A DNA stretch of 64,000 nt, taken from positions 1,172-65,171 of the forward strand of contig JBBRWI010000001.1 of NCBI GenBank assembly GCA_038249305.1, given 5' to 3'. The position numbers and the translations under genes are program-made. A model generated the notes under the pieces. The model searched no databases, had not been told where the DNA came from, and worked only from the letters and a program-made list of their open reading frames with translations. The DNA is from Acetobacterales bacterium. Its GTDB lineage: Bacteria; Pseudomonadota; Alphaproteobacteria; Acetobacterales; Acetobacteraceae. Below, one piece after another: positions 6,265 to 31,394 of this stretch (the first letter of the stretch is position 1; each line of letters opens with the position of its first letter).

Positions 6265-6296
6265 GAAGATCCTCCAACAGCCTATTTCGATACCGA

Positions 6297-7383: not shown

Positions 7384-7563
7384 CAGCGGCTCCGCTGCCG
7401 GTCACGTCTGTTTCGCGGCGTTGCGTATCAAATCCCATCAATGCCCGGCAAGTAGTCAATTTGTTTGTTCGGCACGCCGCACCGCAACGCCGCGAAGCGC
7501 ACCCGGGCCATCGAAGGTGATCGAACCAGCGTGTCCGCCGACCCGTCGCCGCCGTCCACCCGC

Positions 7564-16979: not shown

Positions 16980-19016
16980 TCAGCCGCGGGTCAGCAGAAC
17001 CGCGCCGCGCGGCAGCACCTCGGCCGTCCAGCCGGGCGTGACCAACGTGGTGGCATCCAACTGCGTGACGATGGCGGGCCCGGCGAAGCGGTCGCCGCTG
17101 CCGAGGCTGGCGCGATCATACAGCGCGGCCTGTTCCGGCCCTGCCTCGAAATGCACGGTCCGGGTGCCGATCGGCCGGGCGCCGACCCCCGCGGCAAGCG
17201 CCGGCGCCGGGTTTGGCGGCAGCGCCCCGACGGCTTCCAGCCGAAGGGTGACGATCTCCGCCCGGCCTTCCGGCAGGTCGAAGCCATAGAGGGCGCGATG
17301 GGCGGCAGCAAAATCGGCAGCGGCGTCCTGGCCGCGCCAGGCTATCGGCAGTTCGGCGCCCTGCCCGGCATAACGCATCAGCACGGTGCGCGCGGTGCTG
17401 CGGGCCTCGGGCGCGACACTTTCCTCCATGAACCAGGCCGCTGCCTCGGCTTCCAGCGCGACGAAGACCGCATCGATCAGCGCAGGGTCGCCAGCCTGCG
17501 CCGGCAGGATGGAGCGGCTGAACTCGGCGCGCATGTCGGCCGACAGTAGCCCCTGCGCGCACAGCACGCCCGGCGCGGGCGGCACCAGCACCCACGTGAT
17601 GCCGAGCATTGCCGCCAGCGCGCAGCCATGCAGCGGGCCGGCGCCACCGAAGGGCACCAGGGCGAAATCGCGCGGGTCGTGCCCGCGCTCCACCGACACC
17701 ACGCGCAGCGCGCCGACCATGTTGGAATCGACCACGGCGAGGATTCCCCGCGCCGCCTCATACAGGCCAAGGCCGAGCGGCGCCGCGACCTCGCGCTGCA
17801 CGGCCTCGGCCGCCGCCGCCACATCCAACGCCATGCGGCCGCCAAGCAGCGCCGCCGGCAGATTTCCGAGCACCACATGCGCATCCGTCACCGTGGCGCG
17901 CGTGCCGCCGCGTCCGTAGCAGGCGGGGCCGGGATGTGCGCCGGCGCTTTCCGGGCCGACGGCGAGCGCGCCTTCGCGGGTGACGCGCGCCAGCGACCCG
18001 CCGCCGGCGCCGATCGTCACCATGTCCATCATCGGCAGCGGCAGCGGCCAGTCGCCGACCGCGCCGCGCTGCGTCAGTTGCAGCACGCCGCCGCGCATCA
18101 GGCAGATATCCGCGCTGGTGCCGCCGATATCGACGGTGAGGATGTTCGGCACGCCGGCCGCTTCCGCCATGGCGCGCGCGCCGACCACGCCCGCCGCGGG
18201 GCCAGACAGCGCCGTCACGGCCGGCGCGCGGCGGATGGAGGCAGCACCCGCCACGCCGCCATTCGACTTCATCAGCAACAACGGCGCGGCGATGCCGGCC
18301 TCGACGAGCCGTTCCTCCAGCCGCGCGACATAGGTGGAGACTGCCGGCATGACCTGCGCGTTCAGGATGGCGGCGAGCGAGCGTTCATATTCGCGCACCA
18401 CCGGCAGCACATCGACCGAGGCCGTGATCGCCACACCCGGCAGCGCGGCGCGCAGCAGTGCCGCCACGCGCTGCTCATGCGCCGGCACGGTGAAGGCGTG
18501 CAGCAGGCAGATGGCGATGGCTGTCACACCGCTTTCGCGGCAGGCCTCGGCGGCGGCCAGCACGCTCGCTTCGTCGAGCGGGGTGAGAACAGTGCCATCC
18601 GCGCCGATGCGTTCCTGCACCTCGAACACGCGGGATGGCGGCACGGGGCGCGCGGGCTTCACCCAGGCATGCAGGTTGGCGCGGCGCGGGATGTCCTGGC
18701 GGCCGATCTCCAGCACGTGCCGAAAGCCGGCCGTGGTGATCAGCGCGGTGCGCGCGCCCTTGTTCTCCAGAATCAGGTTGGTGGCGATGGTGGTGCCGTG
18801 CAGCACGCGGCCGATGCGCGACGCGCTCTGCGCCGCCCCATCGAGCGCGAGGCGCACGCCGGTGAGGAAGGCGATCGAGGGATCATGCGGCGTGGACGGC
18901 GTCTTGGCCGTCCAGGCGCGGCCCGTTTCGGAATCCTGCAAGGTGATGTCGGTGAAGGTGCCGCCGATATCGACCGCGACCGATAGTGGCCGCGCGTCAG
19001 TCGAGGACATCGGCAT
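16980..19016 (-). CDS. hyuA: Hydantoinase/oxoprolinase family, A subunit
   Basis: N-terminal AVDIGGTFTD and a second ATPase block TVDIGGTSADI. 678 aa. Confidence 0.85.
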   Translation of the reverse strand: MPMSSTDARPLSVAVDIGGTFTDITLQDSETGRAWTAKTPSTPHDPSIAFLTGVRLALDGAAQSASRIGRVLHGTTIATNLILENKGARTALITTAGFRHVLEIGRQDIPRRANLHAWVKPARPVPPSRVFEVQERIGADGTVLTPLDEASVLAAAEACRESGVTAIAICLLHAFTVPAHEQRVAALLRAALPGVAITASVDVLPVVREYERSLAAILNAQVMPAVSTYVARLEERLVEAGIAAPLLLMKSNGGVAGAASIRRAPAVTALSGPAAGVVGARAMAEAAGVPNILTVDIGGTSADICLMRGGVLQLTQRGAVGDWPLPLPMMDMVTIGAGGGSLARVTREGALAVGPESAGAHPGPACYGRGGTRATVTDAHVVLGNLPAALLGGRMALDVAAAAEAVQREVAAPLGLGLYEAARGILAVVDSNMVGALRVVSVERGHDPRDFALVPFGGAGPLHGCALAAMLGITWVLVPPAPGVLCAQGLLSADMRAEFSRSILPAQAGDPALIDAVFVALEAEAAAWFMEESVAPEARSTARTVLMRYAGQGAELPIAWRGQDAAADFAAAHRALYGFDLPEGRAEIVTLRLEAVGALPPNPAPALAAGVGARPIGTRTVHFEAGPEQAALYDRASLGSGDRFAGPAIVTQLDATTLVTPGWTAEVLPRGAVLLTRG

Positions 19017-20769
19017 AGCTCCCGCGATGGAAAGCGCGCGTCACGGGGCGCGTGGCCCGGAGGGCGGCGGTGGCGGCGGCATCGACGCTGCGGCCCGCGA
19101 CCACCACGCCGTAGTCGCGCGCAGCGGCGGGGGCGCTGACCAGGCCGCCAAGCACGTCTTCCAGCACGGCCTCGCCGGGGCGGTCGAAGGGATGGCCGCG
19201 CCCGCCGCCGCCGCCCGTCTCGATCCGCAGGATATCGCCGCGCACCAGACGGTTGCCGTCCGAGAGCGGGCGCAGGGTGCGTTCCTGCGGCGTGCCGGGG
19301 TTCAGCATCACCCGGCCCGGCCGGCCGGATTGCCCGCCGGCGGCGCCCCAGGGCGGGTTCTCCACGCCGTCGAGACGCACGGCGAGGATGGATTCCTCGG
19401 CCATGATCTCGTATTCGCGAATGATGCCGCAGCCGCCGCGCCAGCGCCCCGGCCCGCCGCTGTCGCGATGCAGGCCGTAATGGCGCAGCCGTATCGGGTA
19501 TTCGAGTTCGAGGAACTCGATCGGGTAGTTTTCCTGCGCGACGAAATACACGCCGTCGATGCCATCCGCGAAGCCGCGCGCGCCATAGCCGACGCCGAGG
19601 CCGTCGCTCATCAGGAAGGGCTTCCCGCCGATCGTGCCGCGCAGCAGCATGATGACATAGGCCGCATGCGCCGCCGGCGCCTCGCCGCCCGCGACCGAGA
19701 CCAGCCCGTTCAGCGCCGCCAGCATGCGCATCATGGTCAGCCCGCGCATGCCAAGGGCTGCGGGAAAGCGCGGCGCGAGCAACGATCCCTCGCGCAGCAG
19801 AACGTCATCCAGCGCGCGCGGCCCACCGGCATTCACCACCTGCGTCGGATCACCGCCGAGGAAATACAGGCCGAGCGCCATGCCGGGCACGTCGCGGTTC
19901 ATCAGGAAGTTGACCGGGCCGGGCGATTGATCGTCGGTCTGGGTCGTATCCAGGATGAAGCGGTCGTCGGCCGTGCGGGTCAGCGCGAGACGCAGCCGCA
20001 GGGTGCCGCTGCCATGGCCATCGCCATCGATCCGGTCGGTGAAGCGATGCGTGCCGATGGCGAAGGTTTCCATCAGCCGCGCCCGCACCGTCTCCAGCGT
20101 GCGGGCGAGCAACCGGCGCAGCGCATCCGCCAGCACCGGCGCCCCGAAGCGCTCGGCGATTTCGCGCATGCGCAGCACGCCGAGATCGACGCTGGCCATC
20201 AACGCCCGTGCATCGCCCTGCGCGAGCTTCGGGTAGCGCGAGTTGCGATAGAAGATCGCCAGCGCCGCCTCGTTCAGCACGCCCGCCGCGATCAGCCGCG
20301 TCGGCGGGATGATGACGCCCTCATGGAAGATCTCGGTGGCGTCGGGGCTGATGGAGCCGGGGCGCAGCCCGCCGATATCGGCGAAATGCGCCCAGCCCAT
20401 GACAAAGGCCACGCGCGCGCCATCGAGGAAAACCGGTGCGAGAAAAACCTGGTCGTTGGAATGGCTGACCGCACCCTTCGAGCCGTAGCAGTCATTGTAC
20501 CAATAAAGGTCGCCTTGCTGCATCGAATCCTTCGGGAAATGCGCGAAGACCGGCCCGCAGATATCGCCGAACACCGGCACATTCGAGCCGACGGCCATGA
20601 CGCCCTCGGCATCGAACAGCGCGGTATAGAAATCCTTCTTCTCGCGGATGAAGGCAGACATGGCCGTGCGCTCGATCAGCGCCTCCATCTCCGCCTGCGC
20701 GGCGCGGATGGCGCCGCGCACGATCTCGAGCGTGACGGGGTTGCAGATCGCAGCCGGTAGAACATCCAT
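18997..20769 (-). CDS. hyuB: Hydantoinase/oxoprolinase family, B subunit
   Basis: 590 aa. N-terminal PVTLEIVRGAIRAAQAEMEALIERTAMSAFIREKKDF is typical of HyuB. Overlaps hyuA by 20 nt. Confidence 0.85.
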   Translation of the reverse strand: MDVLPAAICNPVTLEIVRGAIRAAQAEMEALIERTAMSAFIREKKDFYTALFDAEGVMAVGSNVPVFGDICGPVFAHFPKDSMQQGDLYWYNDCYGSKGAVSHSNDQVFLAPVFLDGARVAFVMGWAHFADIGGLRPGSISPDATEIFHEGVIIPPTRLIAAGVLNEAALAIFYRNSRYPKLAQGDARALMASVDLGVLRMREIAERFGAPVLADALRRLLARTLETVRARLMETFAIGTHRFTDRIDGDGHGSGTLRLRLALTRTADDRFILDTTQTDDQSPGPVNFLMNRDVPGMALGLYFLGGDPTQVVNAGGPRALDDVLLREGSLLAPRFPAALGMRGLTMMRMLAALNGLVSVAGGEAPAAHAAYVIMLLRGTIGGKPFLMSDGLGVGYGARGFADGIDGVYFVAQENYPIEFLELEYPIRLRHYGLHRDSGGPGRWRGGCGIIREYEIMAEESILAVRLDGVENPPWGAAGGQSGRPGRVMLNPGTPQERTLRPLSDGNRLVRGDILRIETGGGGGRGHPFDRPGEAVLEDVLGGLVSAPAAARDYGVVVAGRSVDAAATAALRATRPVTRAFHRGSYADVLD

Positions 20770-20780: not shown

Positions 20781-21755
20781 TCAGGCCAAATGACAGGCGA
20801 CCGCGCGACCCGGGCCGATTGCACGCAGCAGCGGCGCTTCGTCCGCGCAGCGCGCCACAGCCAAGGGGCAGCGGTCGTGGAAATTGCAGCCGGAGGGCTG
20901 GTTGAGCTGATCGGGTAGCCCGCCCTTGATCGGCAATTGGCCGCGATCCTGATCGACGCGCGGCACCGGCACGGCGGCGACGAGCGCGCGCGTGTAGGGG
21001 TGTGCGGCGGCCGCGATCACCTCTGCCGTCGGACCGGACTCGACGATGCGGCCGAGATACATCACCGCCACCTCCTCACAGACGTAGCGAATGAGCGCGA
21101 GGTCGTGGCTGATGTAGATGGCGGCGAGGCCCAATTCGTCGCGGGCGCGGCGCAGCACGTTCAGCACGCCCGCGCGCACCGAGACATCGAGCATCGAGAC
21201 GGGTTCATCCGCGATGATCGCACGCGGATGCGAAACCAGCGCGCGCGCCAGCACCACGCGCTGCAATTGCCCGCCGGAAAGTTCGTGCGGGTGGCGGTCG
21301 AGATAAGCCTCGGGCGGGTCGAGCCGCACGCGGCCCATGGCTTCGAGGATGCGGGCTTCCGCCTGGTCATCCGGCACGCCGAAGTTGCGCAGCGGCTCGG
21401 CCAGCGAGCGGCGGATGGTGAAGCGCGGGTTCAGCGCGTCGAAGGGGTTCTGGAACACCAGCTGCACGCGCGACCGAAAGGGCAGCAGCGCCTGGCCGTG
21501 CAGTGCCGAGACGTCTCGGCCCTCGAACAACACGGTGCCGGAGGTCGCCTCCTCCAGCCGCAGCAGCAGCCGCGCGGTGGTGGTCTTGCCGCAGCCGCTT
21601 TCGCCGACGATGCCGAGCGCGCGCCCGGCGGCAACCGAGAACGAAACCCCATTCACCGCGCGCACCATTGGCCGATGGCCGCGCAGCATATCGCCGAGGC
21701 GGCGTGACGCCGGGAAGGCCTTCACCAGATCATTGGCGGCGATCAGCGGGACCAT
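20781..21755 (-). CDS. Peptide ABC transporter ATP-binding protein (DppF/OppF-like)
   Basis: Walker A GESGCGKTT, signature LSGGQLQR and a C-terminal oligopeptide-type extension. Confidence 0.85.
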   Translation of the reverse strand: MVPLIAANDLVKAFPASRRLGDMLRGHRPMVRAVNGVSFSVAAGRALGIVGESGCGKTTTARLLLRLEEATSGTVLFEGRDVSALHGQALLPFRSRVQLVFQNPFDALNPRFTIRRSLAEPLRNFGVPDDQAEARILEAMGRVRLDPPEAYLDRHPHELSGGQLQRVVLARALVSHPRAIIADEPVSMLDVSVRAGVLNVLRRARDELGLAAIYISHDLALIRYVCEEVAVMYLGRIVESGPTAEVIAAAAHPYTRALVAAVPVPRVDQDRGQLPIKGGLPDQLNQPSGCNFHDRCPLAVARCADEAPLLRAIGPGRAVACHLA

Positions 21756-22747
21756 GTCACGGCCTCCGCCGCGCGGGGGCGTAGCAGCGGCGCTTCACTG
21801 GTGCGCCAACAGGCGGCGTGGTGGTCGGGCGATTCCTCGACGAGTACCGGGTCCGCCGCGCAGCGCGCCTCCACGAAGGGGCAACGCGGCGCGAAGCGGC
21901 AGCCGCTGGGCGGGTTGAGCAGCGACGGCGGCGCGCCCTCGATCGGCACGAGGTCCCCACCCGCACGCTCCAGATCGGGAAAGGCGTTCATCAGCCCCAT
22001 CGTGTAGGGGTGCAGCGGCGCCTCCAGCACGGCGCGCACCGGACCGCTTTCCACCACCCGGCCCGCATACATCACGACCACGCGGTCGCAGGCATAGGCG
22101 ACCACCGCGACGTCATGCGTCACCAGGATCATCGCCAGGCCAAGCCGCGCCTGCAATGCGCGCATCACATCCAGCACCTGGCGCTGGACAATGACATCGA
22201 GCGCCGTCACCGGTTCGTCCGCGATCAACAGCGCGGGTTCGAGCGCGAGGGCGATCGCGATGGAGGCGCGTTGGCGCATGCCGCCCGAGAATTGGTGCGG
22301 CCAATCGCGCAGCCGCCCGGCATCGAGGCCGACGAGGGCGAACAATTCCTCGGCGCGCTTCGCTGCCGCGCCCTTCGCAAGCCCGCCGCGTTCGGTCAGC
22401 ACTTCCAGGATCTGGTTGCCGACGCGCTGCACCGGATCGAGCGCATTCATCGCCGTCTGCGGCACGAAGGACATGCGGCGCCACAGCAGCTTGCGATGCT
22501 CGGCGGGGGAAAGGGTCACGAGGTCTCGCCCCTCGAACACCGCACGGCCGGCGACGATGGCGGCGGTGCGCGGCATCACGCCCATCAGCGCGCGGCCGAG
22601 CGTGGATTTGCCGCAGCCGCTTTCGCCGACCAGGCCCACGATGGAGCCCGCCGGCACGTCGAAGCTTGCGCCATCCACGGCGCGCACCTGCCCCGCCGCG
22701 GTGCGGTAATGCACCGCCAGATCGCGGACCTGCAACAGCGGTTCCAT
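21743..22747 (-). CDS. Peptide ABC transporter ATP-binding protein (DppD/OppD-like)
   Basis: Walker A GESGCGKST and signature FSGGMRQR. The likely ATG at 22747 overlaps the permease stop (ATGA). Confidence 0.85.
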   Translation of the reverse strand: MEPLLQVRDLAVHYRTAAGQVRAVDGASFDVPAGSIVGLVGESGCGKSTLGRALMGVMPRTAAIVAGRAVFEGRDLVTLSPAEHRKLLWRRMSFVPQTAMNALDPVQRVGNQILEVLTERGGLAKGAAAKRAEELFALVGLDAGRLRDWPHQFSGGMRQRASIAIALALEPALLIADEPVTALDVIVQRQVLDVMRALQARLGLAMILVTHDVAVVAYACDRVVVMYAGRVVESGPVRAVLEAPLHPYTMGLMNAFPDLERAGGDLVPIEGAPPSLLNPPSGCRFAPRCPFVEARCAADPVLVEESPDHHAACWRTSEAPLLRPRAAEAVTWSR

Positions 22748-23628
22748 CAATCCCCCAGCTTCGGAAACAGCAGCTTCTCCGACCCGCGCGAGATCAGGAA
22801 TCCGGCCAGGACGAGCAACACGATGCAAAGGCCTGGTGGAATGAACCACGCCCAGACGCCGCGCGACAGCGCCTGATTGTTGAAGGCGTCCTGCAGCATC
22901 AGCCCCCAGGAAATCGCGCTGGGATCGCCGAAGCCGAGGAAGGAAGCCGAGGCCTCGGTCAGGATCGCCCAGCCGACCGCGATCGATCCGTACAGCGCCG
23001 CCAATGGGGCGACCTGGGGCGCGATGTGCACGAAGATGATGCGCGTGGGCGAACAGCCGGTGACGCGCGCGGCCTCCACCCAGCCGCGCTCACGCAGGCT
23101 CAGCACCTGCGAGCGGATGACGCGCGCCGTATTGGGCCACAGCAACAGGGCGACGGAGGCGACAAGCGTGGTGGTGCTCGGCCGTGTCAGCGCCGAAATC
23201 ACCAGCACGAAGGGCAGGAAAGGCAGGCCGATCACCACATCGGCGATACGCATGACGAGGCGATCGACCCAACCGCCGAGATAGCCCGACAGCAGGCCGA
23301 ACAACGTGCCCAGCACCACCACGCAGAAGGCCGCGGTGACGCCCACGGTCAGCGCCGAGCGCGTGCCGTACACCAGTTGCGAGAACACATCCCGCCCACC
23401 CGCCGTGGTGCCGAGGAAATGCGTCATCGAGGGCGGCAGGTAGCGCGCCACGCGGAAGGTGCCGCTGAACAGGATCTGCCGCGGGTCATGCGTCGCGACC
23501 TGGTCTGCGAAGATCGCGACCAGCGCGAACAGCAGGTAGATCGCGATGCCGACGAAGGCGAAGGGCTGGCTGCGCAGAAATCCCCAGGCGCGCCGCACCG
23601 CACCTGGCTTCGCGGGATGGCCGGACAC
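22747..23628 (-). CDS. Peptide ABC transporter permease (DppC/OppC-like)
   Basis: Typical RRAWGFLRSQPFAFVG N-terminus with a 6-TM pattern. The GTG at 23628 lies 4 nt after the dppB-like stop; the longest ORF reaches 23676. Confidence 0.8.
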   Translation of the reverse strand: MSGHPAKPGAVRRAWGFLRSQPFAFVGIAIYLLFALVAIFADQVATHDPRQILFSGTFRVARYLPPSMTHFLGTTAGGRDVFSQLVYGTRSALTVGVTAAFCVVVLGTLFGLLSGYLGGWVDRLVMRIADVVIGLPFLPFVLVISALTRPSTTTLVASVALLLWPNTARVIRSQVLSLRERGWVEAARVTGCSPTRIIFVHIAPQVAPLAALYGSIAVGWAILTEASASFLGFGDPSAISWGLMLQDAFNNQALSRGVWAWFIPPGLCIVLLVLAGFLISRGSEKLLFPKLGD

Positions 23629-23632
23629 GGCG

Positions 23633-24610
23633 CTAGCGCTTTGCACCGACGGACACCCTCGGGTCGAGCCAAGCATAAAGCAAGTCCGCCACCATGTTCA
23701 TCAGCACCAGCACGCCCGCGATCATGATGAAGGCGCCCTGCGCCAGGGGGTAATCCGCCCCCTGCACGGCCGAAACCAGCACACGCCCAAGGCCGGGCCA
23801 GGAGAAGACGGTCTCGATCACCACATTGCCGCCGAAGGATTGGCCGAGGCCCAGCGCGAAGGCCGTCGCCACCGGCAGCAGCGCATTGCGTGCCGCGTGT
23901 CGCATCACGATGGCCCAGCGCGACAGGCCCTTCATGCGCGCCATAACGATGAACTCGTCATTCAGCACTTCCAGCATGGTGGCGCGCATCAGCAGCAGCG
24001 GCAGCCCTTGCAGATACAGCGCGAGCGTCAGCGCCGGCAGCACGAGATGCCACAGGAAATCCGCCGAGGTCAGCCGCGCCCATTCGGAGGTGAATTCAGA
24101 CCCCGCGACGTTGGCGCCGGATGCGGGGAAGATGCCCAGGCCGAAGGACAGCCACGCCAGCAGGATCATGCCGAGCCAGAATTCGGGCGCGGCGCGCGTG
24201 ATCAGCGCGGCCGGAATGGCGATGCCCTCCACCACCGTGCCGCGCGCAAAGGCCAGGTACGCCCCGGCGATGATGCCGAAGGCGTAGGCCACCACCAGCG
24301 CGCTGACCGTCAGGGCCGCGGTGTTCGGCAGCGCTTCGAGCAGGATGTCGAGCACCGGCCGCTTCTGCAGGAAGGACACGCCGAAATCGCCCTGCAACAG
24401 GCTCCACATGTACAACAGGTACTGCTCATGCAGCGGCTTATCCAGGCCGAAGGCATTGAGCAGCGCTAGTCGCATTTCATCGCTGAAGGATTCCGACAGG
24501 AAGTTCAGTGTCGGATCTCCCGGCATCAGCCGGAACAGCAGGAATGTCAGCGACGCGATCGCCCACAGCACGAACAGCGCATGGCCAAGCCGCCCGAGAA
24601 CGCGCTTCAA
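23633..24610 (-). CDS. Peptide ABC transporter permease (DppB/OppB-like)
   Basis: N-terminus MKRVLGRLGHALFVLWAIASLTFLLFRLMPGDP and an EAA-type loop. Confidence 0.85.
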   Translation of the reverse strand: MKRVLGRLGHALFVLWAIASLTFLLFRLMPGDPTLNFLSESFSDEMRLALLNAFGLDKPLHEQYLLYMWSLLQGDFGVSFLQKRPVLDILLEALPNTAALTVSALVVAYAFGIIAGAYLAFARGTVVEGIAIPAALITRAAPEFWLGMILLAWLSFGLGIFPASGANVAGSEFTSEWARLTSADFLWHLVLPALTLALYLQGLPLLLMRATMLEVLNDEFIVMARMKGLSRWAIVMRHAARNALLPVATAFALGLGQSFGGNVVIETVFSWPGLGRVLVSAVQGADYPLAQGAFIMIAGVLVLMNMVADLLYAWLDPRVSVGAKR

Positions 24611-24620
24611 AACACGACAA

Positions 24621-26300
24621 TCACTGGAAGGCGGGCGTCGTCTCGCGCACGCCGGGGGGATAGTGCAGGCGCCCGTTCACGATACGGTACCCCGCCTCCT
24701 GCAGCAGGCGCCGCGCGCCTTCCAGGTTAGCGCCGGGCACCCGCCCCTCGATCCCCGGCAGATGCCAGGCGGAGAGCGCCGGCGAGACCAGCGAGTTGGA
24801 GGGAACCGCCTGCCCGTTCCACGCTGCCCCGGCCATCATCTCCCGGTTCACGGCGGCCGACATGGCGCGGCGGAAAGCGGGGTCGGAGAAGGGCGGGCGG
24901 CGGTTGTTCATGCCGACGAACTGGAAGCCGATATCCACCCCCTCACGGATCGCGATCATCGTGGCCTGGGATTGCGCCATGCCCTTCAGCAGGTCCGGGT
25001 CGCCGGTGTAGTCGGCGATCACGTTGATCTCGCCACGGCGGAAGGCGCCCAGCGTGGCTTCGATGTTGGTGATGATGCGCATGATCCAACGATCCGCCTT
25101 GGGCTTGGCCCAATGGTTCGGGTTCGCTTCGAGCACCACTTCCTCATTCACGCGCGAGCGTACGAAGCGATAGGGGCCGGAGCCGATCGGCCGCTCCTCG
25201 ACATAGGATTCCAGATTCTGCGGGCGATTCTGGTAGTCGGCCAGCACGGGCGCCCAGGTCGCCTTGGACACGATGTTGAGCTTCGCCAACACCGAAATCC
25301 GAAACGCTGCGTCCGGATTCTTCAGCTTGAACCGCACCGTGCGTGCATCCGTGGCGCTCACGCTCTCGATGTTCTGCACGAAGGGCCGGTACATGGGCGA
25401 TTCATTGCCCATCCCCGGTGCCTCGAAGCTGAACACCACGTCGTCCACCGTGACGGGCGCGCCGTCATGGAAGGTCATGCCCGCGCGCAGCACGCAGTCG
25501 ATCGTGGTGGCGTCCACCTGCGTCACCGTCTCGGCCGCCCAGGGCCGCGGCAGGCCGTCCGGGCCCACGCGCATCATGCGGTCCCAGACCAGGTCGGTCA
25601 CCCACGAATCGGGCGCGCCGCTGATATAGAAGGGGTTGGTCGCCTTCACCGGCTCGGTGCTGTTGACGATGATGTCGCGCTGGCGGCCGGTCGGCGTCAG
25701 GCCGATCCAGTTCCAGAAATTGCGGATGCCGAGGCCGGCCTGGTTCACCGCGCTGGCTTCGGCAAAAACCTGCTTGTTGAAGGCTTGCAGGTTCACGGGA
25801 TGCACGAGGAAGGCGTAGGGCTGGTCGCGGTTCACCAGCTCCTGTACCTGGCGGACGATTTGCTGGCGGCGCGGCTGGTCCATCTCCACGCGCTGCGCCT
25901 GGGCGAGGACGTCGTACTCGGGGTTGTTGTAGCCGACGAAGTTGAAGCCCGTCGCGATGTTCGCGGAATGGAACAGGTTGAACACCAACTCGTCCGGGTC
26001 GCCACGCTCGGGTCGGCCGACCATCTGCCACATCGTCGCGTCCCAGCGCTGCCGCTCGTTCCACACCACCTGACTGTGTGCCTGGTTCGGCATCGGGCGA
26101 AGCTCGACTTGTAGGCCGAGTTTGCGCCATTCCTGGGCAATAAGTTCAGCCGCCTGGTAGGCCGCCGGCGCCCCTGCCTGCGGCCGGGTCAGCAGCACCA
26201 GCGGGCGGACAGGGTCGCCCTGGCCCGCCTGCGCGAGGGCTTCCAGGTGCGGAAGCGCAGTCAGGGAGGTGGCGGCAAGCAGCAGGGTGCGGCGGTTCAT
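24621..26300 (-). CDS. ABC substrate-binding protein, family 5 (DppA/OppA-like), apparently circularly permuted
   Basis: ATG at 26300 gives MNRRTLLLAATSLTALPHLEALAQA (RR signal). The family-5 motifs appear in non-canonical order (see finding). The rest of the 1217-aa track ORF is antisense to the M28 gene. Confidence 0.8.
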   Translation of the reverse strand: MNRRTLLLAATSLTALPHLEALAQAGQGDPVRPLVLLTRPQAGAPAAYQAAELIAQEWRKLGLQVELRPMPNQAHSQVVWNERQRWDATMWQMVGRPERGDPDELVFNLFHSANIATGFNFVGYNNPEYDVLAQAQRVEMDQPRRQQIVRQVQELVNRDQPYAFLVHPVNLQAFNKQVFAEASAVNQAGLGIRNFWNWIGLTPTGRQRDIIVNSTEPVKATNPFYISGAPDSWVTDLVWDRMMRVGPDGLPRPWAAETVTQVDATTIDCVLRAGMTFHDGAPVTVDDVVFSFEAPGMGNESPMYRPFVQNIESVSATDARTVRFKLKNPDAAFRISVLAKLNIVSKATWAPVLADYQNRPQNLESYVEERPIGSGPYRFVRSRVNEEVVLEANPNHWAKPKADRWIMRIITNIEATLGAFRRGEINVIADYTGDPDLLKGMAQSQATMIAIREGVDIGFQFVGMNNRRPPFSDPAFRRAMSAAVNREMMAGAAWNGQAVPSNSLVSPALSAWHLPGIEGRVPGANLEGARRLLQEAGYRIVNGRLHYPPGVRETTPAFQ

Positions 26301-26450
26301 GGAGGCATCCTCATCCGGTCGAGGGAATGGGAGCATGATCCGTGCCACCAGCGCCAGTGCCTCCCATGCGATTTCGCCGCCTTGCGCAACGCTTCGCACG
26401 GTGCTGCGATCGTGCCGTTCCGCCCTGTGACGTCTCAAGGACTGCAAATC

Positions 26451-28187
26451 ATGTCGATCTCCGCCGAAGAGCAGCGCTTTCTCGATGCCATCACCCTCGA
26501 CGCCCCCTGGGATCTGGTGACGACCTTCGCAGGGATGCATCGCTGGCGGCCGGATGATGTGAACACCGCCTGCGACGTGATCGTGGACCGGCTGCGCAGG
26601 CATGGCATACCTGTGGAGGTTCATGCGCCGGAGATCTGCCTCTCGGTGCCACACGACGCGTCGGTCACGGCGGGCGGCATGACGTATCGGGCGAAGCCGC
26701 CATCCTCGGCACTGAGCGTGCCGGAGGGGCGCACGGCAGCCTTGGTCATGCTGAACGCCAACCCCAAGGCGCTGCGCTCCTACAACCGCGACATTGCCAC
26801 ACTGTTCGGCGGCACCATCACTTCGGTCGAAGAAGTTAAGCAGAAAGTCGCGGGCAAGATCGTGGTCATGCAGGGCTTCGGCAACCCCGCCCTGACCAGC
26901 CTGATCGAGGAATGGGGCGGCGTCGGCCTGATCGCAGTCAATCCGGGCATTGATATCCATTGGGGCACCTGCACCACGATCTGGGGCAGCCCCGACCTGC
27001 ACGACCTGCCGCGCAAGCCCAAGATCCCGGTCGTCGCCGTCAACAACCCCGATGGCCAAAAGCTGATGGCGCTGGCCGAAGCCGGCGGTGAGGCCACGAT
27101 CCGCACGGTGATGGAGGAAGGCTGGTTCGCCCAGAAGATACCGGTGGTGACCATCCCCGGCGCCGAAGACCCCGAGAAGTACGTGCTGCTGCACGGCCAC
27201 TACGACAGCTGGGAAGTCGGTGTCGGCGACAATGCGACCGGCGACGCCACCATGCTGGAACTGGCCCGCGTGCTCTGGGCTAATCGCGCGAACATCAAGC
27301 GCGGCGTGAAGATCGCCTGGTGGCCCGGGCATTCGACCGGGCGCTATGCGGGCTCCACCTGGTTCACCGATGCCTTCGCGATCGACCTCGATGAGAACTG
27401 CCTGGCGCAGGTGAATTGCGACAGCCCCGGCTGCCGCTGGGCCACGAGCTACCACCAGACGCGGGCCTTCACCGAAAGTGCAGCATTCGCGACGCAGGCG
27501 ATCCGCGATGTGGTGCCGGATGCCGACATCGCCACCTTGCGCCCGCCCCAGGCCGGCGACTATTCTTTCAACAACATCGGCCTGTCGAGCTTCTTCATGC
27601 TGTCGAGCACGATGCCCGAGGCGCTGCGGCATGAGAAGGGCTACTACGACGTCTCCGGCTGCGGTGCGAACATCGCCTGGCACACCGAGAACGATACGTT
27701 GGAGATCGCCGACCAGAACGTGCTGATGACCGACATGAAGATCTATCTTCTGTCGATCCTGCGGATCATCAACGCCGATGTCCTGCCCTTCGACTGGACG
27801 GCGACCTGCGATGAATTCGCCGACACCATCGCCGGTTACGAAGCCGCGTCGAAGGGCGGCGCCGACCTCTCCGCCGCCCGCGCCGCCGTGGCCGAGTTGA
27901 AGGCCGCACTGACGGGGCTGGCTGCGGCGCCGGTCGCCGCGCGCAACGCCGCGGTGCAGGATCTGGCGCGCATCCTGGTGCCGATCAACTTCACGCGGGA
28001 GGCCCGCTTCGCACACGATCCCGCCTATACCCTGCCGCCGCTGCCCGGCCTCGCCGTCGCCGCCGAGTTGACGCTGCTCGATGCGAGCCTGCAAAAGCCG
28101 GCGCAGGTGGAATTGATGCGCGGGCAGAATCGTTTTGTTGCCGCCATGCGCGCGGCAACGAAGCGGGTGAAGCAGGCGAGCGCTTGA
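26451..28187 (+). CDS. M28-family metallopeptidase with PA-like insert, no signal peptide
   Basis: LLHGHYDSWEVGVGDNATGDATMLELARVL metal-ligand block. The ATG at 26451 is in frame with ORF 26247..28187. Confidence 0.7.
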   Translation: MSISAEEQRFLDAITLDAPWDLVTTFAGMHRWRPDDVNTACDVIVDRLRRHGIPVEVHAPEICLSVPHDASVTAGGMTYRAKPPSSALSVPEGRTAALVMLNANPKALRSYNRDIATLFGGTITSVEEVKQKVAGKIVVMQGFGNPALTSLIEEWGGVGLIAVNPGIDIHWGTCTTIWGSPDLHDLPRKPKIPVVAVNNPDGQKLMALAEAGGEATIRTVMEEGWFAQKIPVVTIPGAEDPEKYVLLHGHYDSWEVGVGDNATGDATMLELARVLWANRANIKRGVKIAWWPGHSTGRYAGSTWFTDAFAIDLDENCLAQVNCDSPGCRWATSYHQTRAFTESAAFATQAIRDVVPDADIATLRPPQAGDYSFNNIGLSSFFMLSSTMPEALRHEKGYYDVSGCGANIAWHTENDTLEIADQNVLMTDMKIYLLSILRIINADVLPFDWTATCDEFADTIAGYEAASKGGADLSAARAAVAELKAALTGLAAAPVAARNAAVQDLARILVPINFTREARFAHDPAYTLPPLPGLAVAAELTLLDASLQKPAQVELMRGQNRFVAAMRAATKRVKQASA

Positions 28188-29584
28188 CCCGCGCAGCGGC
28201 GATAGCCGCCGCAACCGGCACGCTCGACGATGGCAGCCTGCTGGCGCTGCTGGCGCGGCGCGTCGCCGTGCCAACCGCGAGCCAGGATGCGGACAGCGAG
28301 CCGCATCTCTGGCGATACCTGGAACACGAGATCGCGCCGGACCTCACGCGCATCGGCTTCACCTGCACGGTCTATCCGAACCCGACCGGCCGGGGCGGTC
28401 CCTTCCTGATCGGGCGCCGCATCGAGGACCCGGGCCTGCCGACACTGCTCACCTACGGCCATGGCGATACCGTGCGCGGCCTCGACGCCGAATGGCATGA
28501 GGGGCTTTCGCCCTGGGTGCTGACGCAGCGCGGCGAGCGCCTCTACGGCCGCGGCATCGTGGACAACAAGGGTCAGCACAGCGCGAACCTCGTGGCGCTG
28601 GAAGCCGTGCTGCGCACCCGCGGCAGGCTCGGCTTCAACGTCACCGTGCTGATCGAGATGAGCGAGGAAGTCGGCTCCCCCGGCATCGATGAGTTCTGCC
28701 GCGCGCATCGTGACGAACTCGCAGCCGATGTGCTGATCGCCTCGGACGGTCCGCGGCTGGTGCCGGACTGGCCGGCGCTGGTGCTGGGCACGCGCGGCGC
28801 GCTCAGCCTCGATTTGCGCGTGACCTATCGCGAGGGCGGGCATCATTCGGGCAATTGGGGCGGGTTGCTCGCGAATCCCGGCGTGCGCCTCGCGCATGCG
28901 ATCGCCAGCATCATCGACCGAAACGGCCGGGTGCTGGTGCGCGACATCGTGCCGGAGCACATGCCCAACAGCGTGCGCGCCGCCCTGGCGCGCTGCCGCG
29001 TGGATGGCGGCGTGGACGGGCCGGAGATCAACGCCTGGTGGGGCGAACCGGGCCTGACCGCCGCGGAAAAGGTGTTCGGCTGGAACACGTTTGAAGTGCT
29101 GGCCTTCAAATGCGGTCATCCCGAAGCGCCGGTGAACGCCGTGCCACCGGAAGCCTTCGCGCGCTGTCAGATCCGCTACACTGTGGACCGCGCGCCCGCG
29201 ACCTTCATCCCCGCCATCCGTCGCCATCTGACGGAGGCGGGTTTCGACGATGTGATGGTCAGCCCGGTCAAGGCCGGCGCCGAATGGGCGGCGACGCGCA
29301 TGGACCCCGACGGGCCCTGGCCACGCCTGGTTGCCGCCTCGGTCGAGGCCAGCATCGGCAAGGCGCCGATGATCGTCCCCAATGCCGGCGGCTCGTTGCC
29401 GAACGATACTTTCGCTGTCACGCTCGGCCTGCCCACCGTCTATATCCCGCATTCCTACAGCGGCTGTTCGCAGCACGCGCCGAACGAACACGCGCTGCTG
29501 CCGCTGATGCGCGAGGGCCTCGCCATCGCCGCCGGCGTGTTCTGGGACCTTGGCGAGCAGCCCTGGCCGAAGGACGCCGCATGA
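28184..29584 (+). CDS. M20/M25/M40-family dipeptidase-like metallohydrolase
   Basis: YGHGDTV and GRGIVDNKG motifs. The TTG start overlaps the M28 stop. Confidence 0.75.
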   Translation: MTRAAAIAAATGTLDDGSLLALLARRVAVPTASQDADSEPHLWRYLEHEIAPDLTRIGFTCTVYPNPTGRGGPFLIGRRIEDPGLPTLLTYGHGDTVRGLDAEWHEGLSPWVLTQRGERLYGRGIVDNKGQHSANLVALEAVLRTRGRLGFNVTVLIEMSEEVGSPGIDEFCRAHRDELAADVLIASDGPRLVPDWPALVLGTRGALSLDLRVTYREGGHHSGNWGGLLANPGVRLAHAIASIIDRNGRVLVRDIVPEHMPNSVRAALARCRVDGGVDGPEINAWWGEPGLTAAEKVFGWNTFEVLAFKCGHPEAPVNAVPPEAFARCQIRYTVDRAPATFIPAIRRHLTEAGFDDVMVSPVKAGAEWAATRMDPDGPWPRLVAASVEASIGKAPMIVPNAGGSLPNDTFAVTLGLPTVYIPHSYSGCSQHAPNEHALLPLMREGLAIAAGVFWDLGEQPWPKDAA

Positions 29585-29930
29585 CTCCCAATGCCGTCAC
29601 GGTCGAGATCATCAAGGGCGCGCCCAGGCTGAGTGCGAGGCGCTGCTGGAACGCACGGCGATGTCGCCGGTGATCCGCGAGAAGCAGGACTGTTTCATCG
29701 GTTGCTGCGGTGCCGATGGCAGGCTGGTGACGGGCACCAAGCTGCCGCTGTTCGGCGATGTGATGCGCCCGATCCTCGATCGATTCCCGGCCGAGGAGAT
29801 CCGGCCCGGCGACATCTTCTGGTACAATGACGGTTATGCGTCGCGCGGCGGTGTCTCCCGCACCTCCGACCAGGTTTTTGCAACGCAGGTTTTCGTGGAA
29901 GGCGCGCTGGTGGCCTTCGCGCAGATCTGG
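29581..29930 (+). pseudogene. Hydantoinase B (hyuB-like) N-terminal fragment, frameshifted and truncated
   Basis: ATG at 29581 overlaps the M20 stop (ATGA). MTPNAVTVEIIKGA is in one frame; from about 29625 AQAECEALLERTAMSPVIREKQD...DIFWYNDGY...VAFAQIW continues in another. Similarity to the intact HyuB at 18997..20769 stops at 29930. Confidence 0.75.
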
Positions 29931-29932
29931 TT

Positions 29933-30016
29933 ATCGGTGAAGGTGCCGCCAGCATCCACGGCTAGGGTAAGCGGCGCATTGGCTTCTGGTTCCGCCATCC
30001 CGAACTGTTCCGCCAT
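29933..30016 (-). pseudogene. Hydantoinase A (hyuA-like) N-terminal ~22-28 codon fragment
   Basis: The minus-strand translation ...PLTLAVDAGGTFTD matches the HyuA N-terminus (SVAVDIGGTFTD). It abuts the hyuB fragment head to head. Confidence 0.55.
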
Positions 30017-30278
30017 GCCTGCCCCGCAGAGTATCGCCGCACCGTAGGCCGCGCGACTGCAGGGCGTAAACATGCGCAGGCCGCCCGTGCGCCGGCGCAC
30101 GAACTTGCATCAGGTCAAAGCGCGCGTCCCGGCATGGATGGCGCATGGGCGACTTCGCGTGGCGCGGATGTGCCGGGCACATCCTGCAGGTTGCTGCGGC
30201 TCATCTGCACCAGTGACCCCTGCCGTGCGAGCGCCTGATCGCGGTTGATGGACGCCGGAGCCGCCGCGCGCAATCCGT

Positions 30279-30968
30279 TCATGCCGACGCAGGCGATCCA
30301 TCCTGCAAGGCCATGTCGTGTTGCACCCGCTGCATGAGCGCTTCGGCCAATGCCGGCGCGTCGAACCGGCGTTCGAGTTCCTGCTGCGTGGTGACGATCT
30401 GAAACCGCAGCGCCCCCCGGATCGCAATGCCTTCGCCCTGCCGCTGATCGGCGTGGATCGGCAGGGTGGCGAAGAGAACCGCTTCCGCCAAAAGCGGCAG
30501 GCTGGTCGCGGGATAGGCCGCCTCAGCCTGCAGCCGCGCCAAATGTTGCGGCAGGGCATCGCGCGCATCCACAGCACTCGGCGCCTCCGCGGGCGGCGGC
30601 GGCTCCGCCAGGAGTGCCGTGTGATGCAAAGCCGCAAGCCGCTCGGCCAGACGCGCTTCCTGCCCCGCCGCATACGGGCGCAGATGCGCTTCGAGCAGGG
30701 CGGTCACATCGGCGAGCGATGCGAAAAATACCTGCCAACGGCAATGCGCCAGCGCCGCGAGGAAGTCTTCGTTGTTGAAGTACTCCCTCTCCCGGCGACC
30801 GGTCTTTACCCGGCAATAATCCAGCACCGTCTTCTGCGCGACATAGGCGGACTGTGCCTGGATGAAGCACGCCATTTCGGACGGGACGGCACTGCGCCGC
30901 TGCCGAAAGAGATCGAGAAGGGCCACGCGAGAGTCTCCAACGCCAGAACGATATGGCGCTCCCAGCAC
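30279..30968 (-). CDS. Hypothetical protein, no recognised domain
   Basis: 229-aa ORF with a GTG start and coding-like third-position bias. No motif recognised and the start is uncertain. Confidence 0.45.
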   Translation of the reverse strand: MLGAPYRSGVGDSRVALLDLFRQRRSAVPSEMACFIQAQSAYVAQKTVLDYCRVKTGRREREYFNNEDFLAALAHCRWQVFFASLADVTALLEAHLRPYAAGQEARLAERLAALHHTALLAEPPPPAEAPSAVDARDALPQHLARLQAEAAYPATSLPLLAEAVLFATLPIHADQRQGEGIAIRGALRFQIVTTQQELERRFDAPALAEALMQRVQHDMALQDGSPASA

Positions 30969-31061
30969 GCCATTGCCAAATCATTAAACATGAACCATTC
31001 TTAACTTACTAGTCTGCAAATCCTTCGGTAACAATGCCTTGGGATGAGCCATTGCCGAATC
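30969..31061. promoter_or_regulatory. Divergent intergenic region with a 14-nt direct repeat GCCATTGCCRAATC (30969-30982 and 31048-31061)
   Basis: 13 of 14 positions are identical, the copies are 79 bp apart, and the region is locally AT-rich. It lies upstream of the DUF4212/symporter operon. Confidence 0.3.
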
Positions 31062-31084
31062 GTGGCGCCAGGAGGAGGAAAACC

Positions 31085-31393: not shown

Positions 31394-31394
31394 C

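What the first reader, a model, noticed from the sequence alone, without database searches (positions are those of the whole stretch)
24621..26300. Family-5 ABC substrate-binding protein with its sequence blocks in circularly permuted order
Directly after the signal peptide, the 559-aa protein carries blocks that lie in the last third of DppA/OppA-type proteins. These are AAYQAAELIAQEWRKLGLQVELRPM, GRPERGDPDELVFNLFHS, NFVGYNNPEYDVLAQAQ and QELVNRDQPYAFLVHPVNLQAFNKQV. Only after them come the canonical N-terminal and middle blocks: WAAETVTQVDATTIDCVLRAGMTFHDGAPVTVDDVVFSFEA, PIGSGPYRFV, NPNHWAKPKADRWIMRII and FVGMNNRRPPFSDPAFRRAMSAAVNRE. The protein ends at ANLEGARRLLQEAGY, the segment that normally sits immediately before the first group. 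Each element occurs once, the ORF is intact, it has an RR-type signal, and it heads a complete DppBCDF-like operon. This fits a functional circular permutant rather than debris. I do not recall a described permuted cluster-C SBP, but I cannot search for one.
Basis: partly seen in the sequence, partly recalled or inferred. Interest (0 to 1): 0.7.

Follow-up and report, generated by a model that had tools for sequence, protein, structure and literature searches.

The report
Naturally circularly permuted peptide-type binding protein
This gene encodes an intact, conserved ABC-transporter binding protein whose last third has moved to the front of the chain, and it belongs to a large family with this order, found in bacteria and haloarchaea, that I could not find described or structurally solved.

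Summary
The 559-aa protein (window 24621-26300, minus strand) matches family-5 solute-binding proteins in two non-collinear pieces. Residues ~25-205 correspond to the canonical C-terminal third. Residues ~206-559 correspond to the canonical N-terminal two thirds. Re-joining the pieces in silico gives one end-to-end match to PF00496, to B. subtilis AppA and to E. coli DppA.

It is not an artefact or debris:
- More than 250 homologues from independent assemblies share the order and the same break point. They include complete genomes of Roseomonas and the Haloferax volcanii DS2 plasmid pHV3.
- dN/dS is 0.08-0.28 over the whole gene, including the new junction.
- The gene always precedes DppBCDF-type genes.

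After un-permutation, 117 permuted sequences separate from 31 canonical ones in a neighbour-joining tree (bootstrap 99/100). This fits a single old permutation event.

The protein most likely works as an ordinary Venus-flytrap binding protein, with its chain termini relocated into domain III. The ligand is unknown, and DppA's dipeptide-clamping residues are not conserved.

No PDB entry has this topology. No paper found describes it in cluster C. The precedent is TpMglB-2 in cluster B. I rate it a new topological variant of a known kind, of moderate interest.

The parts
24621..26300 (-). Complete CDS (559 codons plus stop) of the circularly permuted family-5 (cluster C) substrate-binding protein
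   Evidence: ORF and translation. PF00496 scores 235 bits in two non-collinear stretches. Full-length homologues exist. dN/dS is 0.08-0.28.
26232..26300 (-). Signal peptide, residues 1-23 (MNRRTLLLAATSLTALPHLEALA|Q). It has a twin-arginine motif and an AxA cleavage-type site.
   Evidence: Read from the sequence. RR and A-x-A-Q are conserved in the family consensus. Two homologues are named 'twin-arginine translocation pathway signal protein' by NCBI. No signal-peptide predictor was available.
25686..26228 (-). C-block, residues 25-205. It is equivalent to the last third of canonical proteins (AppA 376-495, DppA 387-516), that is, the second half of domain III plus the final domain-I strand and tail.
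   Evidence: dN/dS is 0.04-0.19.
25665..25715 (-). New covalent junction, about residues 196-212 (...WNWIGLTPTG|RQRDIIVNS...). It joins the ancestral C-terminal tail directly to the ancestral mature N-terminus.
   Evidence: Alignment with canonical relatives. AF2 pLDDT is 87-95 across residues 181-210. dN/dS for 176-215 is 0.09-0.26.
24624..25685 (-). N-block, residues 206-559. It is equivalent to the first two thirds of canonical proteins (AppA 23-349, DppA 77-367), that is, domain I, domain II and the first half of domain III. It ends at ...AGYRIVNGRLHYP..., the point where canonical proteins continue into the strand that now opens the mature protein.
23633..24610 (-). DppB-like permease
   Evidence: BPD_transp_1 and BPD_transp_1_N. 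Syntenic in all loci with enough sequence.
22747..23676 (-). DppC-like permease
   Evidence: BPD_transp_1 and OppC_N. Synteny.
21743..22849 (-). DppD-like ATPase
   Evidence: ABC_tran and oligo_HPY. Synteny.
20781..21755 (-). DppF-like ATPase
   Evidence: ABC_tran and oligo_HPY. Synteny.
16980..20769 (-). Hydantoinase/oxoprolinase B (18997-20769) and A (16980-19016) genes at the end of the same gene string. They probably act on the imported compound.
   Evidence: Pfam Hydantoinase_B, Hydantoinase_A and Hydant_A_N. Conserved downstream of the transporter in Acetobacteraceae and several other alphaproteobacterial loci.
26451..29584 (+). Divergently transcribed M28-family peptidase-like gene (probable start ATG 26451, end 28187) and M20-family peptidase gene (28184-29584)
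   Evidence: Pfam Peptidase_M28, Peptidase_M20 and M20_dimer. An M28 homologue lies next to the permuted SBP in most related loci. Start read from the sequence.

Best explanation
The gene encodes a functional, exported (probably Tat-dependent) substrate-binding protein of a DppBCDF-type ABC importer. It is a natural circular permutant of the family-5 / cluster C fold.

The ancestral chain was opened in a surface hairpin of domain III. In canonical proteins this is '...AGy.D.DGDG.l.k.dGk|pl.l.l...', around E. coli DppA precursor residues 370-373. The ancestral C-terminal tail was joined directly to the ancestral mature N-terminus inside domain I.

The mature chain therefore runs in this order: second half of domain III, last domain-I strand, new link, domain I, domain II, domain I, first half of domain III. 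Both inter-lobe hinge crossings are kept and no extra crossing is needed. The protein should therefore still close on a ligand like a Venus flytrap and dock on the permeases as DppA and OppA do.

What is shown: the permuted order, its conservation, purifying selection, and the operon context. What is inferred: the fold equivalence of the N-terminal block, the unchanged mechanics, and the origin. The origin was probably one ancient event of tandem duplication, in-frame fusion and loss of the two outer parts with retention of a signal peptide. It probably occurred in a lineage related to archaeal-type canonical SBPs that carry a C-terminal anchor.

The ligand is unknown. It is probably not a plain dipeptide bound in the DppA manner. 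The neighbouring genes (M28 and M20 peptidases, hydantoinase/oxoprolinase A and B) point to a peptide-like or cyclic-amide nitrogen compound.
For: 1. Non-collinear matches to PF00496, AppA and DppA become single end-to-end matches after in-silico un-permutation.
2. The junctions are seamless, with nothing duplicated or lost.
3. The same order and the same break point are found in 251 of 253 two-block homologues. These include 131 of the 150 best 50%-identity cluster representatives, many at only 27-35% identity.
4. 32 genome loci have the order: Acetobacteraceae, Rhodospirillales, Azospirillales, Hyphomicrobiales, Rhodobacterales, Trueperaceae and Chloroflexi. So do plasmid genes of Haloferax volcanii DS2, Halalkalicoccus, Natrinema, Ketogulonicigenium and Neorhizobium.
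5. dN/dS is 0.08-0.28 overall, 0.04-0.19 in the moved block and 0.09-0.26 at the new junction.
6. The AF2 model is compact (pTM 0.80, mean pLDDT 82), with pLDDT 87-95 across the new junction. Its best structural neighbours are AppA, TM1226, NikZ, YliB and DppA, aligned over ~370 columns, which is the N-block only, as expected for a sequence-order-dependent aligner.
7. DppBCDF genes always follow the SBP gene, also in distant members.
8. After un-permutation the permuted sequences form one bipartition against the canonical ones (NJ, 99/100 bootstraps).
9. Both blocks have the same two best canonical relatives, P0236 and P0264.
Against: No coordinates could be exported. A permutation-aware superposition of the model on DppA or OppA was therefore not done, and the placement of residues 25-205 in domain III rests on sequence homology and the confident compact model.

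Residues 95-114, the most conserved motif (GRPERGDPDE...), are modelled with pLDDT below 50.

DppA R383 and D436, which clamp the dipeptide termini (PMC12136057), align with Q41 and R96 and are not conserved. Peptide binding in the DppA manner is therefore not supported, and the ligand proposal rests only on gene neighbourhood.

The single-origin inference uses only 31 canonical sequences, chosen by similarity to the query, and a distance tree. Un-permutation could itself add shared signal near the junctions.

No experimental data exist for any member that I could find.
Confidence: 0.85

Rival explanations
1. The two blocks come from two different family-5 SBP genes, joined by illegitimate recombination or gene fusion. 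On this view a C-terminal fragment of one gene lies in front of an N-terminal fragment of another, and there was no true circular permutation of one ancestral gene by duplication and truncation.
For: Family-5 SBP genes are often multi-copy and adjacent. For example, a canonical SBP operon lies directly upstream of the permuted one in L024 and L025. The authors of the TpMglB-2 paper considered such an origin for their permuted segment (PMC4990184). Across the 31 canonical sequences, the N-block and C-block scores correlate only weakly (Spearman 0.25, p = 0.17).
Against: Both blocks have the same two best canonical relatives, P0236 and P0264, which are clearly ahead of the rest for both blocks. 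The pieces complement each other exactly, with no overlap or gap relative to PF00496, AppA and DppA. The result would in any case still be a circularly permuted topology.
Confidence: 0.1
2. The order is an assembly or annotation artefact, or the gene is a decaying remnant of a rearranged SBP gene.
For: The window is about 66% G+C, so long spurious ORFs abound. For example, a 1217-aa stop-free reading frame runs through this gene. A truncated hydantoinase B remnant lies 3 kb away, so local decay does occur.
Against: The same architecture is found in independent isolates and complete genomes. These include Roseomonas sp. OT10, Roseomonas sp. CCTCC AB2023176 (chromosome CP170086), Falsiroseomonas stagni DSM 19981 and H. 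volcanii DS2 pHV3. The gene has an intact ORF, an RBS and a signal peptide. dN/dS is 0.08-0.28. Operon synteny is conserved.
Confidence: 0.01
3. The permutation is adaptive and changes how the protein works. Moving the N-terminus (the tether or export end) from domain I to domain III, close to the ligand-binding half of the cleft, might alter tethering geometry, Tat-export folding or docking on the permease. On this view the family is mechanistically distinct from DppA and OppA.
For: Several distant members, some from haloarchaea, carry a lipobox-like Cys just after the signal peptide (P0133, P0135, P0173, P0255, the H. volcanii protein). If lipidated there, they would be tethered through domain III. 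The closest canonical relatives are tethered by a C-terminal TM helix instead. The new N-terminus lies about 13 residues before the position of DppA R383, a ligand and scoop-loop contact. A family-specific conserved motif G-R-P-x-R-x-D-P replaces the canonical loop.
Against: No data show any functional difference. The hinge crossings are unchanged by the permutation (inference from the DppA domain boundaries). Members with a Sec signal, a Tat signal or a lipobox-like motif all occur, so no single export or tether mode correlates with the topology. The operon partners are ordinary DppBCDF homologues.
Confidence: 0.15

Closest known systems
Canonical family-5 / cluster C substrate-binding proteins (B. 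subtilis AppA 1xoc, E. coli DppA 1dpp/1dpe, OppA, NikA, NikZ, YliB/GsiB)
   Same: The protein is homologous over the whole length (PF00496 at 235 bits; AppA at E = 1e-31). All sequence elements are present once. It has an export signal. It is the first gene of an operon with two permeases and two oligo_HPY ATPases. These proteins are also its best structural neighbours.
   Different: The order of the chain is circularly permuted. The last ~180 residues of the canonical protein come first, the termini lie in domain III, and the ancestral termini are fused. It reaches no curated NCBIfam equivalog cutoff; for example DppA scores 84 against a cutoff of 1005 and OppA 57 against 947. DppA's R383 and D436 are not conserved.
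Treponema pallidum Tp0684 (TpMglB-2), founding member of the circularly permuted 'Type Ic / Cluster Bc' glucose-binding proteins (PMC4990184)
   Same: It is a natural circular permutation of an ABC-transporter binding protein. The permutation is conserved in a clade of homologues, and ligand binding and closure are retained. It is the direct precedent for naming a permuted sub-cluster.
   Different: It belongs to a different structural cluster (B, type I fold, rather than C, family 5) and is not homologous at the sequence level. In TpMglB-2 about 70-100 N-terminal-equivalent residues moved to the C-terminus, a fourth hinge crossing was created, and sequence similarity of the moved part to the canonical protein is poor. 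Here about 180 C-terminal residues moved to the N-terminus. Both parts remain clearly homologous to the canonical family, and no extra hinge crossing is expected.
Closest canonical-order relatives, with a C-terminal membrane anchor of the kind I associate with archaeal SBPs (P0236, P0264; metagenomic, organism unknown)
   Same: They are the best canonical matches of both blocks. They share the tail motif '...GLRN.(W/Y)S(W/F).SL.P..' that forms the new junction in the permuted family. P0236 also precedes DppB- and DppC-type genes.
   Different: They have the canonical order. The tail is followed by a Thr/Pro-rich linker and a C-terminal transmembrane helix, not by the N-terminal strand.

Membership tests
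Pfam PF00496 SBP_bac_5 (family-5 / cluster C SBPs) | Significant match to the family model above the gathering threshold | tested here: met
   235.4 bits against a cutoff of 32.4, E = 1.4e-69
Pfam PF00496 SBP_bac_5 (family-5 / cluster C SBPs) | Collinear, single match along the model (canonical order of the sequence elements) | tested here: not met
   The native protein gives two stretches in reversed order: 251-545 to HMM 2-285, and ~34-115 to HMM 288-366. A single stretch covering HMM 2-366 of 368 appears only after artificial un-permutation.
Pfam PF00496 SBP_bac_5 (family-5 / cluster C SBPs) | N-terminal export signal | tested here: met
   MNRRTLLLAATSLTALPHLEALA|Q has an RR motif, a hydrophobic core and an AxA site. 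These are conserved in the family consensus. This was judged by inspection only; no predictor was available.
Pfam PF00496 SBP_bac_5 (family-5 / cluster C SBPs) | Encoded with Dpp/Opp-type permeases (BPD_transp_1 with OppC_N) and two ATPases carrying the oligo_HPY domain | tested here: met
   The arrangement is conserved in related loci and in distant members.
Pfam PF00496 SBP_bac_5 (family-5 / cluster C SBPs) | Three-domain cluster C fold with the ligand cleft between domains I/II and III | tested here: inconclusive
   The AF2 model has pTM 0.80. Foldseek's top hits are all cluster C SBPs, but they align only over ~370 columns (TM 0.44-0.48), because the aligner is order-dependent. A permutation-aware superposition could not be run.
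Pfam PF00496 SBP_bac_5 (family-5 / cluster C SBPs) | Binds a ligand and delivers it to the transporter | not testable with these tools
   No experimental data were found for any member.
DppA dipeptide-binding protein (NCBIfam NF043070 equivalog) | Score above the equivalog cutoff | tested here: not met
   83.6 bits against a cutoff of 1005
DppA dipeptide-binding protein (NCBIfam NF043070 equivalog) | Arg383 and Asp436 (precursor numbering), which salt-bridge the dipeptide carboxylate and ammonium groups (PMC12136057) | tested here: not met
   These residues align with Q41 and R96 of the query. The columns are variable across the permuted family. The loop alignment is somewhat uncertain.
OppA / Opp4A / NikA equivalogs (NCBIfam NF011684, NF045467, TIGR02294) | Score above the equivalog cutoff | tested here: not met
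   OppA scores 57.4 against 947. Opp4A scores 112 against 650. NikA scores 86 against 393.
Circularly permuted 'Cluster Bc' binding proteins (TpMglB-2 type) | Homology to the MglB-type cluster B / type I fold, with N-lobe strands relocated to the C-terminus | tested here: not met
   The query matches only PF00496 in Pfam. The moved segment is the C-terminal third, relocated to the N-terminus. The resemblance is analogy of principle only.
Permuted family-5 SBP clade (defined here) | C-block directly followed by N-block, with the break point at '...AGY.(W)D..GRL.YP' and the mature start at the '..V..l.ll' strand | tested here: met
   The query and 251 of 253 two-block homologues share the order. 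The representatives end at query position ~548-550. The clade separates from canonical sequences with 99/100 bootstrap support.

The most novel reading that the evidence does not exclude
The gene represents an undescribed topological subclass of cluster C binding proteins, which could be called 'cluster Cc' by analogy with TpMglB-2's 'Bc'. The subclass would have arisen once, long ago, by circular permutation. It has since diversified across Alphaproteobacteria, Chloroflexi, Deinococcota and Halobacteria, including the model archaeon Haloferax volcanii, and its gene neighbourhoods suggest different ligands (peptide-like or cyclic-amide compounds in some, sugars or sugar acids in others). Relocating the N-terminus into domain III beside the binding cleft may have functional consequences for tethering, export or docking.
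Probability: 0.55. Interest if true: 0.6.

Novelty: new variant of a known kind. Interest (0 to 1): 0.5.

Why it matters
Family-5 binding proteins are among the most abundant and best-studied transporter components. Their structural classification (cluster C) assumes one chain topology.

A large, conserved, naturally permuted clade has four consequences:
- It adds a second topology to that classification.
- It explains why domain databases split these proteins into two partial hits and why annotation pipelines give them only generic names.
- It offers a natural experiment on how an exported two-lobe hinge protein tolerates new termini and re-acquires a signal peptide.
- It shows a permissive break site in domain III that could guide engineering of split or insertion biosensors from DppA- and OppA-type scaffolds.

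None of this overturns how ABC importers are thought to work, so the importance is moderate.

Tried and rejected
1. Misassembly, chimera or pseudogene. Rejected on the number of independent full-length homologues, the synteny and the dN/dS values.

2. Tandem duplication remnant (N-C-N-C). Rejected because each element occurs once and the length equals that of a canonical protein.

3. The low-identity genome hits L033-L072 first looked like full-length collinear matches in the summary table. Block-wise tblastn showed that they have the canonical order. They were then used as the outgroup.

4. Search for a solved structure with the permuted order. None was found by phmmer, by a family profile or by Foldseek.

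5. Literature searches for a described permuted cluster C, OppA, DppA or SBP_bac_5 protein, and for the H. volcanii locus tags. Nothing was found except the cluster B precedent.

6. Attempt to identify the organisms of distant members through their contigs. Most are unnamed metagenomic contigs. The plasmid collection gave named hosts instead.

7. Attempt to infer the ligand from DppA's binding residues. They are not conserved, so no ligand could be assigned.

Full report
**1. The observation**

The minus-strand ORF 24621-26300 encodes a 559-aa protein beginning MNRRTLLLAATSLTALPHLEALAQ. A GAGGA Shine-Dalgarno sequence lies about 8 nt upstream of the ATG at 26300. The mechanical ORF list extends this frame to 1217 aa, but only because the ~66% G+C sequence lacks stop codons.

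Pfam finds only PF00496 (SBP_bac_5), at 235 bits, in two stretches. Residues 251-545 cover HMM positions 2-285, and residues ~34-115 cover HMM positions 288-366. Phmmer against PDB sequences gives the same picture for every top hit. For B. subtilis AppA, query 209-543 aligns to chain 23-349 and query 50-174 aligns to chain 376-495. BLASTP against E. coli K-12 DppA, taken from NC_000913.3, gives 249-537 to 77-367 and 45-178 to 387-516.

I then re-ordered the sequence in silico, placing residues 206-559 before residues 25-205. The result matches PF00496 in one stretch (HMM 2-366 of 368, 242 bits). It also matches AppA in one stretch (35-495) and DppA in one HSP (77-516, E = 1e-25). The protein is therefore a clean circular permutant at the sequence level.

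**2. Where the cuts are**

I aligned un-permuted family members with canonical relatives. The canonical continuous segment '...AGFkDeDGDGfleRkGePfkFtiitnqGn...' corresponds to two separate ends of the query. One is the query's C-terminus, '...AGYRIVNGRLHYPPGVRETTPAFQ*'. The other is its mature N-terminus, 'AGQGDPVRPLVLLTRPQAG...'.

At the other junction, the ancestral C-terminal tail 'LGIRNFWNWIGLTPTG' runs straight into the ancestral first strand 'RQRDIIVNS'. Nothing is duplicated or lost.

In DppA precursor numbering the break lies near residues 370-373. From the published DppA domain boundaries, which I recall rather than tested here, this is inside domain III. The fused old termini lie in domain I. 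Both inter-lobe crossings are retained.

**3. Not an artefact, not debris**

The word-indexed protein search returned 120 listed homologues at 57-96% identity. Nearly all are ~553-581 aa long, and they cover 90-100% of the query. They include proteins from Falsiroseomonas stagni, F. frigidaquae, F. bella and the complete genome of Roseomonas sp. OT10.

A scan of one genome per GTDB species gave 72 loci. Block-wise tblastn shows that L001-L032 (47-96% identity) carry the C-block immediately followed by the N-block. L033-L072 (about 30% identity or less) carry the canonical order. The permuted loci come from these groups:
- Acetobacteraceae
- Rhodospirillales
- Azospirillales
- Hyphomicrobiales
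- Rhodobacterales
- Trueperaceae
- Anaerolineales / Chloroflexi

Nei-Gojobori dN/dS against five orthologues is 0.08-0.28 for the whole gene. It is 0.04-0.19 for the moved block and 0.09-0.26 for the new junction, residues 176-215.

**4. The family is large and old**

An exhaustive phmmer search of 1.84 billion 50%-identity cluster representatives found 39,600 hits at E of 1e-3 or better, and 323 at E of 1e-30 or better. Of the best 150, 131 have the permuted order, 2 are canonical (P0236 and P0264) and 17 are one-block fragments. Many permuted representatives share only 27-35% identity with the query. They still align collinearly from about residue 25 to about 549 and end at the same point.

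Several have Tat signals followed by a lipobox-like Cys, and acidic composition. A tblastn search of the plasmid collection with one of them (P0255) found single-piece, near-full-length matches in these organisms:
- Haloferax volcanii DS2 pHV3
- Halalkalicoccus jeotgali
- Haladaptatus
- Natrinema
- Ketogulonicigenium vulgare
- Neorhizobium galegae
- Microvirga
- Nitratireductor
- Roseomonas marmotae

The H. volcanii protein is WP_004041133.1 (HVO_RS00095). It lies beside permease and ATPase genes and close to the xylose-dehydrogenase gene. I verified that it is permuted: residues 85-225 match DppA 386-523, and residues 290-622 match DppA 73-401.

**5. One origin?**

I un-permuted 117 full-length permuted sequences and aligned them with 31 canonical ones (511 columns). 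A neighbour-joining tree contains the bipartition of permuted against canonical sequences, and 99 of 100 bootstrap replicates recover it. No permuted sequence has a canonical nearest neighbour.

Profiles of the two blocks, scored separately against the canonical set, both rank P0236 and P0264 first. This argues that both blocks derive from one ancestral lineage rather than from two unrelated genes.

P0236 and P0264 have the tail motif that forms the new junction. In them the tail is followed by a Thr/Pro linker and a C-terminal membrane helix.

The usual route to circular permutation is tandem duplication, in-frame fusion and loss of the outer parts. For an exported protein this route also requires retention or re-acquisition of a signal peptide. 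It fits the data but is an inference. The canonical sample is small and was chosen by similarity to the query.

**6. Structure**

AlphaFold2 with a 30-sequence family alignment gives a compact model with mean pLDDT 81.9 and pTM 0.80. pLDDT is 87-95 across the new junction and 87-91 next to the new termini. Residues 95-114, which carry the family's most conserved motif GRPERGDPDE..., fall below 50.

Foldseek against the PDB returns only cluster C binding proteins, including AppA, TM1226, NikZ, YliB, DppA and OppA. All align over about 355-390 columns with TM 0.40-0.48. That is what an order-dependent aligner should give for a permutant whose larger block is ~350 residues.

A profile of 40 diverse permuted proteins was searched against PDB sequences. 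All 60 listed hits match in the canonical way: profile positions ~204-549 align to chain positions ~1-370, and the C-block is found separately. I therefore found no solved structure with this topology. A permutation-aware superposition could not be run because coordinates are not exposed. This is the main untested step.

**7. Function and mechanism**

The gene heads a co-directional string of DppB-, DppC-, DppD- and DppF-like genes. This string follows the permuted SBP gene in every related locus with enough sequence, and also in distant members.

In the window and in most alphaproteobacterial relatives, an M28-family peptidase-like gene is divergently transcribed. It is often followed by an M20 peptidase gene. 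Hydantoinase/oxoprolinase B and A genes follow the ATPase genes.

Distant members sit in other contexts. One lies with a GntR regulator, an amidohydrolase and an ATC hydrolase. Another lies with an IclR regulator, an aldo-keto reductase, an SDR, an enolase-superfamily enzyme and a gluconolactonase. The neighbourhoods therefore suggest that the clade has diversified in ligand.

In E. coli DppA, R383 and D436 clamp the dipeptide termini and contact the DppB scoop loop (PMC12136057). Both positions fall in the moved block. They align with Q41 and R96 of the query and are not conserved in the family.

My best account is an ordinary Venus-flytrap binding protein of a Dpp-type importer for a peptide-like or cyclic-amide compound. 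The permutation relocates the chain ends but not the hinge.

**8. Comparison with what is known**

The protein is homologous to canonical cluster C proteins but fails the collinearity that the family model assumes. It reaches no curated NCBIfam equivalog cutoff.

The only natural circular permutation of a transporter binding protein that I found in the literature is T. pallidum TpMglB-2. It is a cluster B protein, and its authors proposed the label 'Cluster Bc' (PMC4990184). That case differs in fold cluster, in the direction and size of the moved segment, and in needing a fourth hinge crossing.

Seven full-text searches for a permuted family-5, cluster C, OppA or DppA protein found no description, and neither did one for the H. 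volcanii locus tags. Subscription-only literature and domain-database notes could not be searched.

**9. Verdict**

The correction is one of scale. This is not a singular event in this genome. The gene is one member of a widespread, old, apparently unnamed permuted clade of family-5 binding proteins.

I rate it a new variant of a known kind. Interest is moderate (0.5). It would be a solid and somewhat surprising addition to binding-protein classification and a useful natural experiment in protein topology, but it does not challenge transport mechanisms.

Noticed in passing
window 29550-30047 (+), homology at 29622-29930: This is a truncated remnant of a second hydantoinase B gene. Only residues ~17-119 of a ~598-aa protein remain (89% identical to the intact copy next to the M20 gene in Falsiroseomonas tokyonensis, L002). 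Relatives L002, L004, L007 and L011 keep a full second HyuB/HyuA pair here. The window genome seems to have lost it by deletion.
   Followed up: partly
window 26247-26450 and 24621-28274: Two mechanical ORF calls are misleading in this high-G+C region. The SBP reading frame stays open for 1217 codons upstream. The M28 gene is listed from a GTG at 26247, overlapping the SBP start. Its likely start is the ATG at 26451 (MSISAEEQRF...), which leaves a 150-bp divergent intergenic region at 26301-26450.
   Followed up: partly
window 26451-28187 (+); related loci L002-L032: A ~580-aa M28-family peptidase-like protein co-occurs with the permuted SBP operon across distant taxa. It is sometimes present in two or three copies per locus (L022, L024, L025, L030) and is even inserted between dppC and dppD in a Chloroflexi locus (L029). 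This looks like a functional partnership, and it may point to the transported substrate.
   Followed up: partly
L081 (Haloferax volcanii DS2 pHV3, record 20888-26834): The model archaeon H. volcanii carries a permuted family-5 SBP (WP_004041133.1, 622 aa). It lies with two permease genes and a fused double ATPase gene, a few kb upstream of the D-xylose 1-dehydrogenase and FAH-family genes. I found no paper mentioning the presumed old locus tags HVO_B0021-B0024 (my inference from gene order, not verified). The organism is genetically tractable and would suit testing the family.
   Followed up: partly
window residues 95-104 of the SBP (nt ~25989-26018); alignments A1 and A2: The family-specific motif G-R-P-x-R-x-D-P (GRPERGDPDE in the query) is invariant among close relatives and nearly invariant at R99, D101 and P102 across the whole permuted clade. 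Relative to canonical proteins it contains a 2-3 residue insertion, at the loop that carries DppA D436. AF2 models this stretch with pLDDT below 50. It may be a ligand-contact loop or a mobile loop.
   Followed up: partly
window 31034-33443 (+): A small membrane-protein ORF (119 aa) is followed by a 682-aa ORF that looks like a sodium:solute symporter. G+C drops to ~0.59-0.60 around 30500-32000, against ~0.66-0.70 in the flanks. These ORFs were not scanned against any family library.
   Followed up: no
L024 and L025 (Hyphomicrobiales MAGs), locus positions ~2389-7655: A complete canonical-order family-5 SBP operon lies immediately upstream of the permuted SBP operon in the same orientation. 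Such tandem arrangements are the raw material for a duplication-fusion route to permutation.
   Followed up: no
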